From assembly GCA_902806345.1 (NCBI GenBank), contig CADCWF010000296.1, forward strand, positions 1 through 60,577: a stretch of 60,577 nt of DNA, in the 5' to 3' direction. The notes below the pieces were generated by a model. The model did no database searches, had not been told where the DNA came from, and was given only the letters and a program-made list of their open reading frames with translations. This document shows positions 20,853-27,415 of the stretch, piece by piece (position 1 is the first letter of the stretch; each line of letters starts with the position of its first letter). This DNA comes from an uncultured Thermomicrobiales bacterium. GTDB lineage: Bacteria; Chloroflexota; Chloroflexia; Thermomicrobiales; UBA6265. Made by a program: the position numbers and the translations under genes.

Positions 20853-21101
20853 CTACCCGCGCGCCGCCGCCACCATCCCCGCGGCGTCCTGACCGGCCAG
20901 CCCCAACTCGTCCAGACCCCGCGCCACCGCCCGGAAGTCCGTCCGCAGCACGGCCGAGGCGAGCGTTACCAGGGCGTCGATCGTCGGCGTCTCGACACCC
21001 AGCGCGTCCCCGATCAGTCCCCAGGTCGCCAGTCCGTAGGGCACGTCCTCCGTGAGCCAGTGGGTGTCGAGCCCCCCGGGGGCCCGCAACGCGGTCAGCA
21101 T
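20853..21101 (-). pseudogene. 3' part (82 aa) of an interrupted NAD/NADP opine (octopine/nopaline) dehydrogenase
   Basis: MLTALRAPGGLDTHWLTEDVPYGL...GVETPTIDALV...ARGLDELGL is the Octopine_DH C-terminus; it joins in frame to 26573-27415. Confidence 0.88.
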
Positions 21102-21339
21102 CCGGCTCTCCTTGCTGACCAAGGATCTCTCCTGGGGAGTGTGGTTGGGCGTTGGCCCATGCCTTTCGAGGACTTCGACCAAGTAGCCGACCTGGAGGTA
21201 GCCCCAGTGGCGGCCGAATGGCTTGCCTCGGCGCGTCGATATCGACGAGATGGCTGCAACACGACGCCCGGTTCGTGCGGGTGCCGTACCGAGCGCCAGG
21301 CAACGGGCTTTCCCTTCGCCGCCCTCGTCCCCAGTCTTA

Positions 21340-21356
21340 GAGCGCGTTGCAAAACC
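21340..21356 (+). mobile_element. IS5-family-like terminal inverted repeat (orphan end)
   Basis: TTA|GAGCGCGTTGCAAAACC is a 16/17 inverted match to 22419-22435. Confidence 0.7.
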
Positions 21357-21672
21357 GGTGAGACGCTGCCGAGCAGACGGAGCCGGCGGTGGTCCCGCCG
21401 GTCGGTGGTCCGGCCGCGCTCGGGGATTGACCGGGGGGGACGCCCCCACTAGCATCCGTCTCCCCCCTGCCTCGGCCGGGGATCCGAGGAGGAGCGACCC
21501 GCCAACGGGAGCGGACCGTGGGCCGTCGGTCGTTCGCGTCCGTCGTCGCCGGCGGCGGAACCTTCGCGATGGGCCCGCGAGAGGTTCCGGGCGGCCACAG
21601 CATCGTCGGCGAGGACCCGCGGGGCGCGGAATGCGCGCTCGTCGGAAAAGCCCGAACCCAAAGGAGAGCGAC

Positions 21673-22855: not shown

Positions 22856-25750
22856 GTGGAGGACTCCGAGCGCACGGAGCCCGAGGCAGGCGGGACTGTC
22901 GACGAGCTCCGGGTCTGGGGGAATGCCCTCGGGATCCTGGCCAAGCAGTTGCCGGCCATCCTCTGGACGGTCGACGCCGAGCTGCGCTTCACCTCCTCCT
23001 TCGGGGCGGGCCTCCGGGCCCTCGGCCTACGTCCGGGGGAGGCGGTTGGCCAGACCCTCGCCGAGTTCTTCGGGGTCGGCGACCGCGACCACCCCTCGAT
23101 CGCCGCCCACCGCCGTGCGCTGCGCGGCGAGCCGGTCGTCTACCACGAGGCGTGGGCGGGCCTCTCCTACCGCGTCCACCTTTCGCCGGTGCGCGGCCCC
23201 GATGGCGCGATCGACGGCGTCCTCGGACTCGCCTTGGACGTCACCGGGCAGGCGGCGGCCGAGGAGCGGTACCGGCGGAGCGACGAGCGCCTCGGGCTGG
23301 CCCTGGCCGCCGTCGGGATGGGGACCTGGGACTACGATATCCGGTCCGGCGAGGTCGCGTGCTCGCCGACGACGGCCGCCCTCCTTGGCCTCCCACCCGG
23401 CACCGCCCGTTACCCCTATGCGGCGACGCTCGCGCGCATCCTGCCCGAGGACCGGCGGCGGCTCGAGGAGGCCGATCGGCGGTCGGTCGAGGCCGGGGCA
23501 GTCTACGAGGTCGAGTACCGTTTCCTCCTGCCCGACGGCCGCGTTCGCTGGCTGGCGGAGCGGGGGGAAGATTCCGAACGCGGCGCGGACGGCCGCGCCA
23601 CGGTGATGCGCGGCGTCATCTTCGACGTCACCGAGCGCCACGAGGCGGAGGAGGAGCTGCGGCTCAGCCAAGACCGCCTTGCCACGGTCTTCCGCGCCAG
23701 CCCGGTCGCGATCGTCGTCCGGTCCCTGATCGACGGCCGGTTCCGGGACGTCAACGACCGCTTCCTCGAGATGACCGGGTACGCGCGGGAGGAGGTGATC
23801 GGCCGGACGCCCGCCGAAGTCGGCGTCTGGGCGGGGTCGTCCGAGGACGACCGGAACCTGGTCGCGGGGCAAGTGCGGGCGAACGGCAGCGTCCGGAACC
23901 ACGAGGGCACCTTCCGCACCAAGGCCGGGAACATCCGGCGCGTGCTGCTGTCCCTGGAGAGGATCGAGCTGGAGGGGGAGCCCTGCCTCCTCGGGTTCGG
24001 CTACGACGTCACAGAGCGCAAGCGGATGGAGGAGGAGCTGCGCCGGAGCGAGGAGCGTTTCCGGGCCCTGGTGGCCAACGCCTCCGACGTCATCACCGTT
24101 CTCGACGCCGAGGGCACGATCCGCTACGAGAGCCCGGCGGTCGAGCGTATGCTCGGATACTCCCCCGAGGAACTCGTCGGCTCCGACCCCATCGCCCTGG
24201 TCCACCCCGACGACGCGGCGGCGGCACAGGACTTCTTCGCGGAGATCCTGCGCTCACCCGAGACCAACGTCCCGTCGACCGCGCGCTTTCAGCACAAGGA
24301 TGGGTCGTGGCGCTGGCTGCAGGCGGTCGGCACCAACATGCTCGACGACCCGGCGGTCGGCGGGGTCGTCGTCAACGCCCGCGACGTCACCGAGCGCCGA
24401 GAGGTGGAGGCGCTGTTGGAGCACCGGGCCTTCCACGACCCCCTGACCGACCTTCCCAATCGGGCCCGCTTCATCGAGCGGCTCGAGCAAGCGATTGCCG
24501 CTACCGGTCGTCATGGCAACCCCATCGCGATCCTCCTGGTCGACCTCGACGGCTTCAAGGTCGTCAACGACAGTCTCGGCCACGTCTCCGGTGACGCGCT
24601 CCTGGTCGCCGTTGCCGCACGTTTGCGGGCCGCGCTGGCCCCGGAGGCGCTGCTCGCCCGCTTCGGTGGCGACGAGTTCGCCGTCCTGCTCGCGGGACTC
24701 GGTTGCCCGGATGCGGCGACCCGCGTGGCGAAGGAACTGGTCGAAGTGCTGGATGCCCCGTTCCTCGTCGACGGGCGCGAGACGTACGTCACCGCCAGCG
24801 TGGGCATTGCCCGACGGACGCCCCGACGAGCCGACCCGAATGACCTCCTGCGCGACGCCGACACCGCGCTCTACCGCGCAAAGGCAGCCGGGCGCGGCGG
24901 GTACGCCGTCTTCGTGCCGCGGATGCGGGCGGACGCGGTGGCGCGGCTGGAGCGGGAGACGGCGTTGCGGCGGGCGGTCGAGCGGGATGAGTTGGTCCTC
25001 CACTACCAGCCGGTCGTCGAGCTGGCAACCGGCGGCATCATCGGGGCGGAGGCGCTGCTGCGGTGGCGGCAACCCGGGGGTGGGCTGCTGCCGCCGGCCG
25101 AGTTCATCGGGCTGGCGGAGGAGACCGGGCTGGTCGTCCCGCTCGGGCGCTGGGTGCTGCGGGAGGCGTGCCGCCAAGCGGCGGCCTGGCTTGCCGCCGC
25201 GGAGGAGGGGTTGCCATTCGTCATCGGCGTCAACGTGTCGGCCCGCCAACTCCAGCACGTTGGGTTCGTACAGGAGGTGGCGACGGCGCTGGACGAAGCC
25301 GGGCTGGCACCTTGGCGGTTGGAACTGGAGGTCACCGAGGGCGTGGCGACGGCGGACGCCGAGACAACCCGAAGGGCGCTGGCGGCGCTGCGCAAGCTCG
25401 GCGTTCGCCTTGCGATCGACGACTTCGGGACCGGCCAGTCGTCGCTGGGTCGCCTGCACGCACTGCCCTTCGCGACGCTCAAGATTGACGGCTCGTTCGT
25501 CGCCGGGCTGGGACGTGACCGGGCCGGTCTGGCCGTGGTCCGGGCAGTGACCGGGCTGGCCCACGACCTCGGGATTGCCACAACCGCGGAGGGCGTCGAG
25601 ACGGCCGAGCAGGCGGCGGCCCTACGGGACCTGGGGGTCGACCGTGCCCAGGGGTACCATTTCGCGCCGCCGCTGGACGCCGACCGCGTCGGCGTGCACC
25701 TGGCCCGGCACGACCGGTCGCTCGGGGGATCCGATGCCACGCCGGGCTGA
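22856..25750 (+). CDS. Multi-PAS diguanylate cyclase/phosphodiesterase (about 4 PAS + GGDEF + EAL)
   Basis: Repeated DVTER PAS ends; [37 protein letters not shown]. Start uncertain (ORF is open from 22694). Confidence 0.93.
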
Positions 25751-26548
25751 CGGGGTGGGAGGGCACGAGGCGCGGGTCGGCGTCGGGCAGCGTGGCCGGA
25801 CCCGAGCCCGGCGGCGATGCGCCCGGAGCGACGGGCAGGGGTCGAGCCGAGCCCGAGTCCTTCCAGCCTGACTCCGGCGCAGCAGCGGTTCCTTCGCTTG
25901 GAAGGAGAGGCGCTGGCGTGGCCGCCCCTGCCGCTCCCCTACGTCGTACCTGGAAGGCGGCCACAAGAAGCAACGAAGCCGATTCACCGCCTCGTGCGCG
26001 GCACGATTCGGTACCGCGGCTAGGACGCATCGCCGCGAGCGCAACCAAGGAGAGCGGCCCGAGGCGAGGAACCGATCGGATCCCTGCGGCTGCGTCACTG
26101 ACACTCCGCCTGTCCCAGCAACCGGCATATGCCCACCCGCATGGGCCTGCTTCTGCCCGCAGGCGAGGGCGGGGCTTCGGCCGCCGCGTCGGCGGCGCGG
26201 CGGCATCCAACTGCACATTAGGACCGACTGCCACGGCCAGAACTACTCCAGCCACCAGCCGTCGGCGATGCTGCCAACGGTCCAGGAGCAGCGCCAGGTC
26301 TACCTGGCAACCTTCCGCCTCCCGGCGAAGACGGTGGCCGAGGTCGTCCGGCGGGAGCCTCGCCCCTGGCCACCCCAATCGATTGAATCGCACCGCGTGT
26401 CGGAGCCGACGATTGGCGTAACCGAGCGCGCGGCAGGGTGCTGGTCGAGCGGCGATTGTTGCCGGGGAGGACTCAGCGCTAGCGGCTCGCGGGCACGCCC
26501 TAGCTACTCCCGGAGGTCGGGTTCTTCTCCTCGGACGACCACCACAAT

Positions 26549-27415
26549 TCAAGCAGCGGCGGATTGCGTTCCCATCCGGCTGCCGTTGATGACCGCCCAG
26601 AGGTCTGCCGAGGCGGGACCGAACCCCGCCCGGGCGAACGCCTCCGCTACCGGCGCCAACTCCAGCCCGAGCGCCGCCCCCAGTGCCCGCCGCTCGCCGT
26701 CAACCGCCCCGATCGCGGCGACGACGCCGGGCGTCACCCCTTCCTCGTAGAACCAGAACTCGCCGCGGCTGCGCTCGATCCGGCCGGCGTTGAGGAGTAC
26801 CCCGGCCGGGTGAACGACCGGGTTGAGCGCCGAGAGCCCCGCCTCCAGGGCGTGGCCGTAGGCGACCGCGCCGGGGAACAGCGACCCCAGCCTGGTCATC
26901 GCCCACGCCGTCTGCCGCGCCGGCCGGACGCCGATCCCCAGCCCGGTCACCGTCCCCCAGATCACCGCCGCGTCCGGCGCCGTCTTGCGGCAGACGTAGG
27001 GCGCCGTGTCCGACTCGGCGACGACGACCTCGGCAACCCCGGCGGCGGCCAGCCCCCGGCCGAGCGCCAGCGCGCCGAAGTTCCCCGGCAACAGGGCCAG
27101 GAGGTGGCCGGGGCGCAGGAACGGCAGGATCTGGCGGAGGATCGGGGCGTGGGCGAAGCTGGGGACGGAGCAGAGCAGGGTGTCGGACCAGGCCAGCGCC
27201 TCGGCGGGGTCGGTCGTCGCCCCGGCCAACCGCGCCCGGCCGGTCCGCGCCGCCCCCTCGAGCCGGATCTCCCGGCCGTGCCGGATCGGCTCGAGCCCGG
27301 CGGCGTGGTCGGGGTGCTCCCAAAGGAGCACCGCGTGCCCGGCCAGCGCCAGGTCGGCCGCCATCGCGACGCCCGTGTTGCCGACCCCAAGGACCGCGAT
27401 CCGGTCTCCGCCCAC
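26549..27415 (-). pseudogene. 5' part of the interrupted NAD/NADP opine dehydrogenase
   Basis: GGAGG plus GTG; IAVLGVGNTG Rossmann motif; NPVVHP; EFWFYEEG; DGERRALG. Homology ends at GSRM, followed by insert-derived GTQSAAA*. Confidence 0.88.

What the first reader, a model, noticed from the sequence alone, without database searches (positions are those of the whole stretch)
20853..27415. Opine dehydrogenase gene split by a 5474-bp att-bounded insert with no recognisable integrase, carrying a c-di-GMP enzyme
Seen: the 5' part (27415-26573) ends ...WAVINGSRM and the 3' part (21107-20853) begins SRM-LTALRAPGGLDTHWLTEDVPYGL. CATCCGGCT occurs at both junctions and the similarity extends to 18/22 bp (CATCCGGCTctcctTGCTGACC vs CATCCGGCTgccgtTGATGACC). 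The reconstructed empty site is a dyad, GCGGTCAGCA-N12-TGATGACCGC. Precise removal gives an uninterrupted 362-aa ORF, and neither half shows stops or frameshifts. The cargo is a VOC gene and a PAS-GGDEF-EAL gene; I see no recombinase and no TIRs at the outer ends. Known: dyad cores are typical of site-specific recombinase targets, and gene-interrupting elements (skin in sigK, the nifD element) are excised to restore genes. Inference: either a decayed island, or an element mobilised in trans whose excision would restore the enzyme and remove a c-di-GMP enzyme in one step.
Basis: partly seen in the sequence, partly recalled or inferred. Interest (0 to 1): 0.85.

Follow-up and report, generated by a model that had tools for sequence, protein, structure and literature searches.

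The report
Opine dehydrogenase gene split by insertion
A soil-crust bacterium's opine dehydrogenase gene is cleanly cut in two by about 5.5 kb of inserted DNA carrying a signalling enzyme, but nothing shows that the insert can move or act as a switch.

Summary
The opine-dehydrogenase gene (minus strand) is split at 21107/26573 by a 5465-bp insert flanked by a 9-bp duplication (CATCCGGCT, codons S-R-M). In 11 of 11 relatives' loci the two halves abut with exactly that 9-nt overlap.

The junctions are not a binning artefact. An independent assembly holds the same truncated 317-aa protein, and a contig from another study bridges the right junction.

The insert has no recombinase or transposase remnant, no terminal inverted repeats and no tRNA. 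Its ends have no other copy in the genome, in 400 class-level genomes, or in the plasmid, phage or viral sets.

It does hold an internal 1.1-kb cassette with the same inverted ends as an IS5-type insertion sequence abundant in this genome. That points to DNA from the lineage's own stock.

Contig breaks in one run fall exactly where co-existing filled and empty alleles would fork an assembly graph. This is indirect.

My best reading (about 0.5) is a single integration of a DNA circle by crossover at a short identity, giving a segregating knock-out. The excision-switch idea is not supported but not excluded.

The parts
26573..27415 (-). 5' part of the opine dehydrogenase gene (281 aa, GTG start). 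The frame runs on 7 codons into the insert (GTQSAAA) to a stop at 26549-26551.
   Evidence: Pfam PF02317 1.8e-18 plus NAD-binding N-terminal families. 86-88% identical, ungapped, to residues 1-281 of intact 362-aa relatives.
20853..21107 (-). 3' part of the same gene (84 aa including the repeated S-R-M).
   Evidence: PF02317 profile positions 99-149, E 1e-11. 86.9% identical to residues 279-362 of P0003 and P0123.
21099..21107 (.). Left copy of the 9-bp direct repeat CATCCGGCT (AGC CGG ATG in gene sense).
   Evidence: Read directly. Present once in all relatives.
26573..26581 (.). Right copy of the 9-bp direct repeat.
   Evidence: Read directly.
21108..26572 (.). 5465-bp insert: two genes plus about 1.9 kb without coding signal (21108-21672, 22171-22855, 25751-26572).
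   Evidence: Third-codon-position GC (GC3) frame plot. 25 stop-to-stop frames gave no Pfam family above cut-off. No Rfam hit. Ends unique.
21337..22438 (.). 1102-bp cassette inside the insert. It is bounded by 20-nt inverted repeats (21337-21356 and 22419-22438) that match the ends of an IS5-family insertion sequence of this genome. It carries only the PF06983 gene. A third, degenerate copy lies at 22301-22320.
21673..22170 (+). PF06983 (3-dmu-9_3-mt, PhnB/VOC-like) gene, 165 aa.
   Evidence: Pfam E 2.3e-45.
22856..25750 (+). PAS (3-4 modules)-GGDEF-EAL gene. The start is uncertain: the ORF opens at 22694 and the coding signal begins near 22820.
   Evidence: EAL 1.9e-75, GGDEF 1.5e-44, PAS families. 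GGDEF, EAL and DDFGTG motifs read in the translation. GC3 plot.
19493..20599 (-). Bmp/PnrA-type ABC substrate-binding gene downstream of the split gene, followed by ATPase and two permeases.
   Evidence: Pfam. The same neighbour is present in same-genus G001 (L010, 74% identity).
27588..28292 (-). OmpR-type response regulator upstream of the split gene.
   Evidence: Pfam. The same neighbour is present in G018 (L002, 65% identity).

Best explanation
A single 5465-bp piece of DNA from the lineage's own gene pool was inserted into the coding sequence of an opine-dehydrogenase gene, duplicating 9 bp of target. The piece holds an IS-end-bounded PF06983 cassette, a PAS-GGDEF-EAL gene and about 1.9 kb of non-coding DNA.

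The most likely route is one reciprocal crossover between a circular copy of that DNA and the chromosome. The crossover fell within a 9-bp identity that sits in an 18/22 similarity. It could be short-homology (illegitimate) recombination or an adventitious act of a host recombinase.

The insert has no mobility functions or ends of its own. It truncates the enzyme to 317 aa.

Shown: the insertion, its precision, the lack of recognisable mobility genes or ends, and its presence in several assemblies. Inferred: the circular intermediate, the crossover mechanism, that the enzyme is thereby knocked out, and the co-existence of the uninterrupted allele.
For: - The insertion is precise and relatives are intact: 11 of 11 loci.
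- No Pfam family passed its cut-off in 25 frames of the spacers. There is no tRNA and no Rfam family.
- No coding-like frame spans the hypothetical circle junction (GC3 at most 0.76, against 0.9 or more in real genes).
- The insert ends have no other copy in the own genome, in 400 class-level genomes for each end, in plasmids or phages, or in viral contigs.
- No outer inverted repeats were found.
- The insert's left end resembles the target's far flank (9 of 13, P about 0.01). A crossover between similar sequences predicts this; a transposase target duplication does not.
- The internal cassette carries the inverted-repeat variant that is abundant in this genome: 29 motif hits here, 6 in G002, and 0-3 in each of the other 19 relatives searched. 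The insert's GC and GC3 lie within the host range.
- Both halves are equally diverged from relatives, so the insertion is recent.
- In run X1, contigs end at 21107 and start at 26573, each with a 30-nt overlap onto the insert-side contigs. A filled-plus-empty fork predicts exactly these positions.
Against: - A clean 9-bp duplication with no loss of target bases is also the hallmark of DDE transposases (IS4, IS903 and IS256 groups make 8-9 bp; recalled).
- No donor locus or circle was found.
- The 18/22 similarity is a post-hoc observation with P of only about 0.01.
- The empty-site contig was not among the rows shown: 15 joints were listed and 101 were not. No intact protein more than 88% identical is in the protein collection.
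- The genome is 90% complete in 377 contigs, so a partner element could be unassembled.
Confidence: 0.5

Rival explanations
1. The insert is a non-autonomous transposon moved in trans by a DDE transposase that makes 9-bp staggered cuts. The 9-bp repeat is then a target-site duplication.
For: The 9-bp perfect duplication involves no target loss. The genome holds 20 DDE_Tnp_1 matches. It also holds transposase-less cassettes bounded by insertion-sequence ends, so trans-mobilisation is plausible in this organism.
Against: The insert has no inverted repeats at its ends. Its terminal 60 nt match nothing longer than about 18 nt in the genome and have no copies in 400 class-level genomes. The IS5-type element found here appears to duplicate only TA (read). 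The similarity between the insert end and the target flank goes unexplained.
Confidence: 0.17
2. The insert is an excisable gene-intervening element that has lost, or never had, its recombinase and is served in trans. It would resemble a cis-mobilisable element or the gin element. Excision at the 9-bp core would restore the enzyme and remove the c-di-GMP enzyme, possibly in a regulated way.
For: The 9-bp identical core lies within an 18/22 similarity, and a 9/10 dyad sits in the reconstructed site. Both halves are undecayed. X1 shows fork positions that fit an empty allele. In X2, contig ends lie within one base of the outer edges of both repeats, which is unexplained. Seven tyrosine-recombinase and three serine-recombinase matches lie elsewhere in the genome. 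The gin element of Bacillus cereus also recombines within a 9-bp sequence (PMC5595907, abstract read).
Against: No recombinase lies in the insert or on its 60.6-kb contig. The dyad is within chance range and off-centre. The filled allele is what two separate assemblies recovered. No circle junction was seen; the X2 contig starts at 21098, whereas a circle junction predicts 21099. An empty allele is explained equally well by an unfixed insertion. All known gene-intervening elements I could check encode their own recombinase (PMC5595907 abstract; others recalled).
Confidence: 0.15
3. End-joining repair captured a stray DNA fragment at a staggered double-strand break. Fill-in of 9-nt overhangs produced the duplication.
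For: This fits the absence of ends, recombinase and other copies.
Against: It does not explain the similarity between the insert end and the target flank. No nuclease giving 9-nt staggers is identified. I did not test for Ku or LigD in this genome.
Confidence: 0.08
4. The insert is an assembly or binning artefact: a chimeric contig.
For: The source is a metagenome-assembled genome in 377 contigs.
Against: A 9-bp repeat is far shorter than assembler words. An independent 15.6-kb contig encodes the same 317-aa truncated protein with the same insert-derived tail. X12 record 24 bridges the right junction with 76 and 167 letters on either side. X1 records 2 and 7 each carry 30 flank letters joined to insert sequence. 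Eight runs hold at least half of the stretch's sampled words.
Confidence: 0.02

Closest known systems
Cis-mobilisable elements (CIMEs) of streptococci
   Same: An inserted block flanked by direct repeats that has no integration or transfer genes. ICEberg 2.0 defines CIMEs as having lost both gene sets while retaining intact attL and attR (PMC6323972, Introduction passage read).
   Different: CIME att sites are those of a known ICE or IME family and lie at that family's usual target. Here no related element, integrase or att family is known, the repeat is only 9 bp, and the target is inside a coding sequence that gets destroyed.
Gene-intervening elements excised to rebuild a gene (gin in gerE of Bacillus cereus; skin in sigK; SPbeta in spsM; nifD element)
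   Same: The element interrupts an otherwise intact gene. Short direct repeats sit at the junctions; gin recombines within a 9-bp sequence (PMC5595907, abstract read). Precise loss would restore the frame.
   Different: gin carries three recombinase genes (same abstract), and SPbeta uses its own SprA (PMC5499854, search listing only). Those rearrangements are tied to sporulation or heterocyst development (the heterocyst case is recalled). Here there is no recombinase, no developmental context and no excision product.
Transposon insertions with 9-bp target duplication (IS4, IS903, IS1 and Tn5/Tn10 types; recalled)
   Same: A perfect 9-bp duplication of target and gene inactivation. Rare precise excision between the repeats would restore the gene.
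   Different: No terminal inverted repeats, no transposase and a single copy.
Mobile insertion cassettes (MIC231 of Bacillus cereus; Chen et al. 1999 and De Palmenaer et al. 2004, seen only as entries in the reference list of PMC2266710)
   Same: This applies to the internal 1102-bp cassette, not the whole insert. It has insertion-sequence-type inverted ends around a passenger gene and no transposase, alongside full copies of the insertion sequence in the same genome.
   Different: The parent is an IS5-family (DUF4096 plus DDE_Tnp_1) element of about 858 bp rather than IS231. Mobility is untested.

Membership tests
Octopine/nopaline (opine) dehydrogenase family, for the split gene | PF02317 helical domain plus an N-terminal NAD(P)-binding fold | tested here: met
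   PF02317 spans the two halves (profile positions 3-78 and 99-149). PF01210, PF02558 and PF03807 hit the N-terminus. The halves are 86-88% identical to proteins that sources name opine dehydrogenase family.
Octopine/nopaline (opine) dehydrogenase family, for the split gene | Both halves derive from one gene rather than two paralogues | tested here: met
   The same best relatives give near-equal identity (87.8-88.1% and 86.9%), ungapped, with an overlap of exactly 3 residues. The N-half query found one match in the genome.
Integrase-type integrative element (island, prophage, ICE or IME) | A tyrosine or serine recombinase gene at one end | tested here: not met
   No family above cut-off in 25 frames of the spacers. 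None of the 7 PF00589 or 3 PF00239 matches lies on contig C296.
Integrase-type integrative element (island, prophage, ICE or IME) | Direct repeats (attL and attR) at the junctions | tested here: met
   A 9-bp exact repeat within an 18/22 similarity. This feature is not specific to the family.
Cis-mobilisable element (CIME) | att sites shared with a resident or related ICE or IME that can mobilise it | tested here: not met
   The junction sequences match nothing longer than about 20 nt, and only at chance level, in the own genome. No related element turned up in the relatives searched. The genome is only 90% complete.
DDE transposon or non-autonomous derivative | Terminal inverted repeats at the outer ends | tested here: not met
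   The ends were read directly. No inverted-repeat pair sits at 21108 and 26572 among the 25 longest pairs listed, of 379 found.
DDE transposon or non-autonomous derivative | Target-site duplication of fixed length | tested here: met
   9 bp, present once in 11 of 11 relatives.
DDE transposon or non-autonomous derivative | Several copies, or copies at different sites | tested here: not met
   Near-identical genomes may have been left out of the collection scans.
Developmentally excised gene-intervening element | Excision products: a rebuilt gene and a circle | tested here: inconclusive
   Contig forks in X1 fit an empty allele. No joint or circle appeared in the rows shown. Only contigs were available, not raw reads.
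Xer-dependent elements (IMEX, pdif modules) | dif-like 28-bp sites at the junctions | not tested
   No dif model for this lineage was at hand. From recall, the junction does not resemble canonical dif.
Mobile insertion cassette (internal cassette 21337-22438 only) | Inverted ends identical in type to those of an insertion sequence in the same genome, a passenger gene, and no transposase | tested here: met
   The motif has 34 hits against 0 for the control. Full copies of about 858 bp carry DUF4096 plus DDE_Tnp_1. The cassettes carry PF06983, Glyoxalase, Cupin_2 or DUF6841 genes only.
Mobile insertion cassette (internal cassette 21337-22438 only) | Target duplication or an empty site showing transposition | tested here: inconclusive
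   The flanks read TTA...TAA, which is compatible with a TA duplication. No empty site was examined.

The most novel reading that the evidence does not exclude
The insert is a recombinase-less, repeat-bounded gene-intervening element that a trans-encoded recombinase excises and re-inserts. The recombinase would recognise the roughly 22-bp core. A desert-crust Chloroflexota bacterium would thereby toggle between an opine-dehydrogenase-positive state and a state with an extra PAS-GGDEF-EAL c-di-GMP enzyme, for instance across wetting and drying. This would be the first such switch outside spore formers and heterocystous cyanobacteria, and the first without a self-encoded recombinase.
Probability: 0.06. 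Interest if true: 0.8.

Novelty: new member of a known kind. Interest (0 to 1): 0.35.

Why it matters
As it stands, this is a well-documented natural knock-out: a metabolic gene disrupted by a precise insertion that also brings in a c-di-GMP signalling gene. Several biocrust and soil metagenomes hold the stretch.

It is a clean test case for how DNA without any mobility machinery enters a bacterial gene with a neat 9-bp duplication.

If raw reads showed circle junctions or condition-dependent empty sites, it would become a new type of genetic switch. If not, it is an ordinary insertion polymorphism.

The side finding is a family of single-gene cassettes with IS5-type ends that is expanded in this genome. 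It shows an active route for shuffling small detoxification-type genes in this lineage.

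Tried and rejected
- **Recombinase or transposase remnants.** Pfam at E up to 1 on 25 stop-to-stop frames of the three spacers gave only DUF5575_C at E 0.076, below its cut-off.
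- **Structured RNA.** There were no Rfam matches at E up to 1 over 20500-27800.
- **tRNA target.** There is none in the window.
- **A gene broken by circle opening.** No coding-like frame spans the permuted junction.
- **Donor locus or other copies.**
  - The own genome gave only domain-level paralogues plus a 28-nt stretch that is the insertion-sequence end motif.
  - The 40 relatives gave hits only within the two genes among the rows listed; 47 rows were not listed.
  - The 400 class-level genomes searched for each end gave only 20-100-nt matches, best E 1.5e-6 and 5.9e-6.
  - The genome-contig scan with the GGDEF-EAL protein had a best hit of 51% identity. None of the 80 loci kept has a PF06983 neighbour.
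  - The metagenome-contig scan with the first 265 aa had a best hit of 40% identity among 10 loci.
  - Plasmids and phages gave domain-level hits only.
  - Viral contigs gave 0 hits for either end.
- **Empty allele in public assemblies.** A 24-nt flank pattern found 0 records in metagenome contigs, though near genomes may be left out. The protein collection has no intact copy above 88% identity.
- **Joints.** None of the 15 joints listed joins 21107 to 26582; 101 joints were not shown. Parts of the stretch lacking contig cover in X10 and X12 are not used as evidence.
- **Composition.** There is no sharp GC change at the junctions.
- **Promoter and terminator scan.** Terminator-like sites were at chance level (3 found against a shuffle mean of 2.3). 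The single promoter-like site, at 21427-21455, is no evidence of function.
- **Small coding-like blip at about 26120-26330.** Its translation shows nothing recognisable.
- **138-bp inverted-repeat pair at 22301-22438.** Its interior is not homologous to the 138-bp pair on contig C165.

Full report
**1. The observation**

The gene lies on the minus strand.
- The 5' part runs 27415..26573 (281 aa) and ends ...WAVINGSRM. The frame then reads seven insert-derived codons (GTQSAAA) to a stop.
- The 3' part starts at 21107 with SRMLTALRAPGG... and ends at 20853.
- CATCCGGCT occurs at 21099-21107 and 26573-26581.
- Pfam places the two parts on consecutive stretches of Octopine_DH: profile positions 3-78, then 99-149.

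The N-half query matched 18 of 41 genomes searched, counting the window's own, and found one match in the own genome. I took 11 loci from relatives (L002-L012).
- In 11 of 11, tblastn hits of the two halves abut with a 9-nt overlap.
- In blastp against their open frames, the N-half hit 11 of 11 and the C-half 10 of 11. The frame in L009 is cut short; flags a TAG there.
- In the 9 loci that passed my motif filter, the DNA reads ...ATCAACGG. ... CGGATGCT... without interruption. The same-genus genome G002 has the 26 nt around the site identical to the two window flanks put side by side. L002 and L006 did not pass the filter and are covered.
- L005 comes from the unpublished genome G011. The conclusion does not depend on it.

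The closest intact proteins in the large protein collection are 362 aa.
- The N-half aligns ungapped to residues 1-281 (P0004) or 4-281 (P0003, P0123). The C-half aligns to 279-362.
- Identity is 86.1-88.1% for the N-half and 82.1-86.9% for the C-half.
- So the halves belong to one gene, overlap by exactly S-R-M, and show no extra decay.
- Source names of these relatives (Chloroflexia, Thermomicrobiales) suggest the organism is a Thermomicrobiales-like Chloroflexota. This is an inference.

**2. Is it an artefact?**

The genome is a metagenome bin: 377 contigs, 90% complete. Three results argue against an artefact.
- The protein collection holds a second 317-aa truncated protein on a different 15.6-kb contig. 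It differs by one residue and has the same insert-derived tail.
- The stretch 20500-27800 is held wholly or partly by 20 listed runs of 13 studies, all labelled biocrust or soil metagenomes. Eight of them hold at least half of its sampled words.
- In the four runs laid as Logan contigs, X12 record 24 (26497-26739) bridges the right junction with 76 and 167 letters on the two sides. X1 records 2 (21078-21411) and 7 (25589-26602) join 30 flank letters to insert sequence. That is one letter short of the tool's own bridging rule.

**3. What the insert contains**

The insert is 5465 bp (21108-26572).

Third-codon-position GC (GC3) marks two genes:
- a PF06983 (PhnB/VOC-like) gene at 21673-22170;
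- a PAS-GGDEF-EAL gene from about 22856 to 25750, with GGDEF, EAL and DDFGTG motifs present.

About 1.9 kb shows no coding signal. In those spacers:
- 25 stop-to-stop frames gave no Pfam family above cut-off;
- Rfam gave nothing;
- the window has no tRNA gene;
- no coding-like frame spans the junction of a hypothetical circular form.

The outer ends share no inverted repeat.

The terminal sequences are unique:
- no other copy in the own genome;
- only chance-size matches in 400 class-level genomes for each end;
- nothing beyond domain-level hits in plasmids and phages;
- no exact hit in viral contigs.

The GGDEF-EAL protein has no close orthologue. The best hit is 51% in species-representative genomes, and 40% for its first 265 aa in metagenome contigs. 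None of the 80 loci kept has the PF06983 gene beside it.

**4. An internal clue to origin**

Inside the insert, 20-nt inverted repeats at 21337-21356 and 22419-22438 bound a 1102-bp unit holding only the PF06983 gene.
- The motif has 34 hits at up to 3 mismatches in the genome, against 0 for the reversed control. Many hits lie at contig ends.
- Four pairs about 855-885 bp apart are copies of one insertion sequence, 73-83% identical to each other. In the copy I scanned, it encodes DUF4096 plus DDE_Tnp_1 in two frames, so it is IS5 family.
- Other pairs bound transposase-less single genes: Glyoxalase, Cupin_2 and NTF2-like DUF6841. These look like mobile insertion cassettes.
- At up to 1 mismatch there are 29 hits in this genome, 6 in G002, and 0-3 in each of the other 19 relatives searched. 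One of those hits is in unpublished G011.

So at least this part of the insert belongs to the lineage's own mobile stock. GC and GC3 of the insert lie within the host range.

**5. Mechanism**

The 9-bp repeat is a duplication of target, present once in all relatives.

Beyond it, the insert's left end resembles the target's far flank in 9 of 13 positions. On the other side the figure is 3 of 13. Resampling gives P about 0.005 per side and about 0.01 for either side.
- A transposase duplication does not predict such similarity.
- A reciprocal crossover between a circle and the chromosome at a short identity does predict it. That holds whether a recombinase did it or short-homology recombination.

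The dyad in the rebuilt site is 9/10 with 12 nt between the arms. It is not centred on the 9-mer, and 3.5% of random 40-nt windows hold one as good.

The genome holds 7 tyrosine-recombinase, 3 serine-recombinase and 20 DDE_Tnp_1 matches. None is on this contig.

I therefore favour a single integration of a circular DNA of the lineage's own pool at a short identity, leaving an immobile insert (about 0.5). The alternatives are:
- a trans-mobilised transposon (about 0.17);
- a trans-served excisable element (about 0.15, of which a regulated switch is about 0.06);
- end-joining capture at a staggered break (about 0.08);
- an artefact (about 0.02).

**6. Polymorphism**

In X1:
- the flank contig ends at 21107 and the next contig starts at 21078;
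- the insert-side contig ends at 26602 and the flank contig starts at 26573;
- 30-nt overlaps are what a graph of 31-letter words gives at a fork. That Logan uses k = 31 is recalled; the overlaps are observed;
- the two fork positions are exactly those predicted if an allele with a single copy of the 9-mer and no insert co-exists;
- flank contig depths (10.8, 13.6) slightly exceed junction contig depths (9.06, 9.72).

This evidence is indirect. The 51-nt joining contig was not among the rows shown.

In X2:
- one contig starts at 21098 and one ends at 26581, within one base of the outer edges of the repeats;
- record 25 is laid only up to 21107, although it has 1036 further letters;
- two neighbouring SNPs would explain the ends. 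A circle junction would predict 21099, not 21098. I leave this unexplained.

An empty allele, if real, is explained most simply by an insertion that is not fixed.

**7. Consequences**

The enzyme is truncated from 362 to 317 aa and loses the last 81 residues, part of the helical domain.

Synteny is partly conserved: response regulator then opine dehydrogenase in G018, and opine dehydrogenase then Bmp-type transporter in G001. A 253-bp gap before the transporter gene leaves room for its own promoter (inference).

**8. Comparison with known systems**

- CIMEs are defined as having lost integration and transfer genes while keeping attL and attR (PMC6323972, Introduction passage read). This case lacks any related ICE or att family.
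- The gin element in gerE recombines within a 9-bp sequence but carries three recombinase genes and acts in sporulation (PMC5595907, abstract read).
- The internal cassette matches the mobile insertion cassette concept. I saw the MIC231 papers only as entries in the reference list of PMC2266710. The search listing shows the term is used in other bacteria.
- I did not search the literature for split opine dehydrogenase genes, so I make no claim about print novelty.

**9. Verdict**

This is a real, precise and recent insertion that knocks out a metabolic gene and adds a c-di-GMP enzyme. The mechanism is unresolved, and there is no positive evidence for mobility or switching. Interest is moderate. 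It would rise sharply only if raw reads showed circle junctions or condition-dependent excision.

Noticed in passing
window 21337-22438; own genome C320:6189-6781, C128:1055-1777, C198:1842-2504; full copies C339:15906-16763, C365:47350-48210, C215:1005-1859, C88:30-914: An IS5-family insertion sequence of about 858 bp (DUF4096 plus DDE_Tnp_1 in two frames) shares its roughly 20-nt inverted ends with transposase-less units. Each unit carries one small gene (PF06983, Glyoxalase, Cupin_2 or NTF2-like DUF6841). They look like mobile insertion cassettes. The motif has 29 hits here, 6 in G002, and 0-3 in each of the other 19 relatives searched.
   Followed up: partly
window 21098 and 26581 (run X2): In X2, one contig physically starts one base before the left repeat and another ends on the last base of the right repeat. 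Record 25 is laid only up to 21107 but has 1036 more letters. This is unexplained: either SNPs next to the repeats or another junction form.
   Followed up: no
window 21720-22207: The summed contig depth of pieces at least 90% alike over the PF06983 gene is 117-296 in three of the four runs laid and 23-34 in X10. The neighbouring bins mostly read about 3-25. Many community members seem to carry near-identical stretches of this gene, possibly because it rides on the cassette.
   Followed up: no
window 22301-22438 and own genome C165:294-431: Two 138-bp units are bounded by the same inverted ends but have unrelated interiors. They resemble miniature inverted-repeat elements.
   Followed up: partly
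window 27420-27573: Upstream of the split gene, the motif CCCTATC(C/T)CC is repeated: a 28-nt tandem pair at 27502-27557 and a 24-nt inverted pair at 27420-27443 and 27550-27573. These may be operator sites for the adjacent OmpR-type regulator.
   Followed up: no
window 23224-24435: Four 66-nt segments spaced 378-387 nt apart mark the ends of four PAS-like modules (...DVTER..EE...). The sensor region appears to have grown by internal duplication.
   Followed up: no
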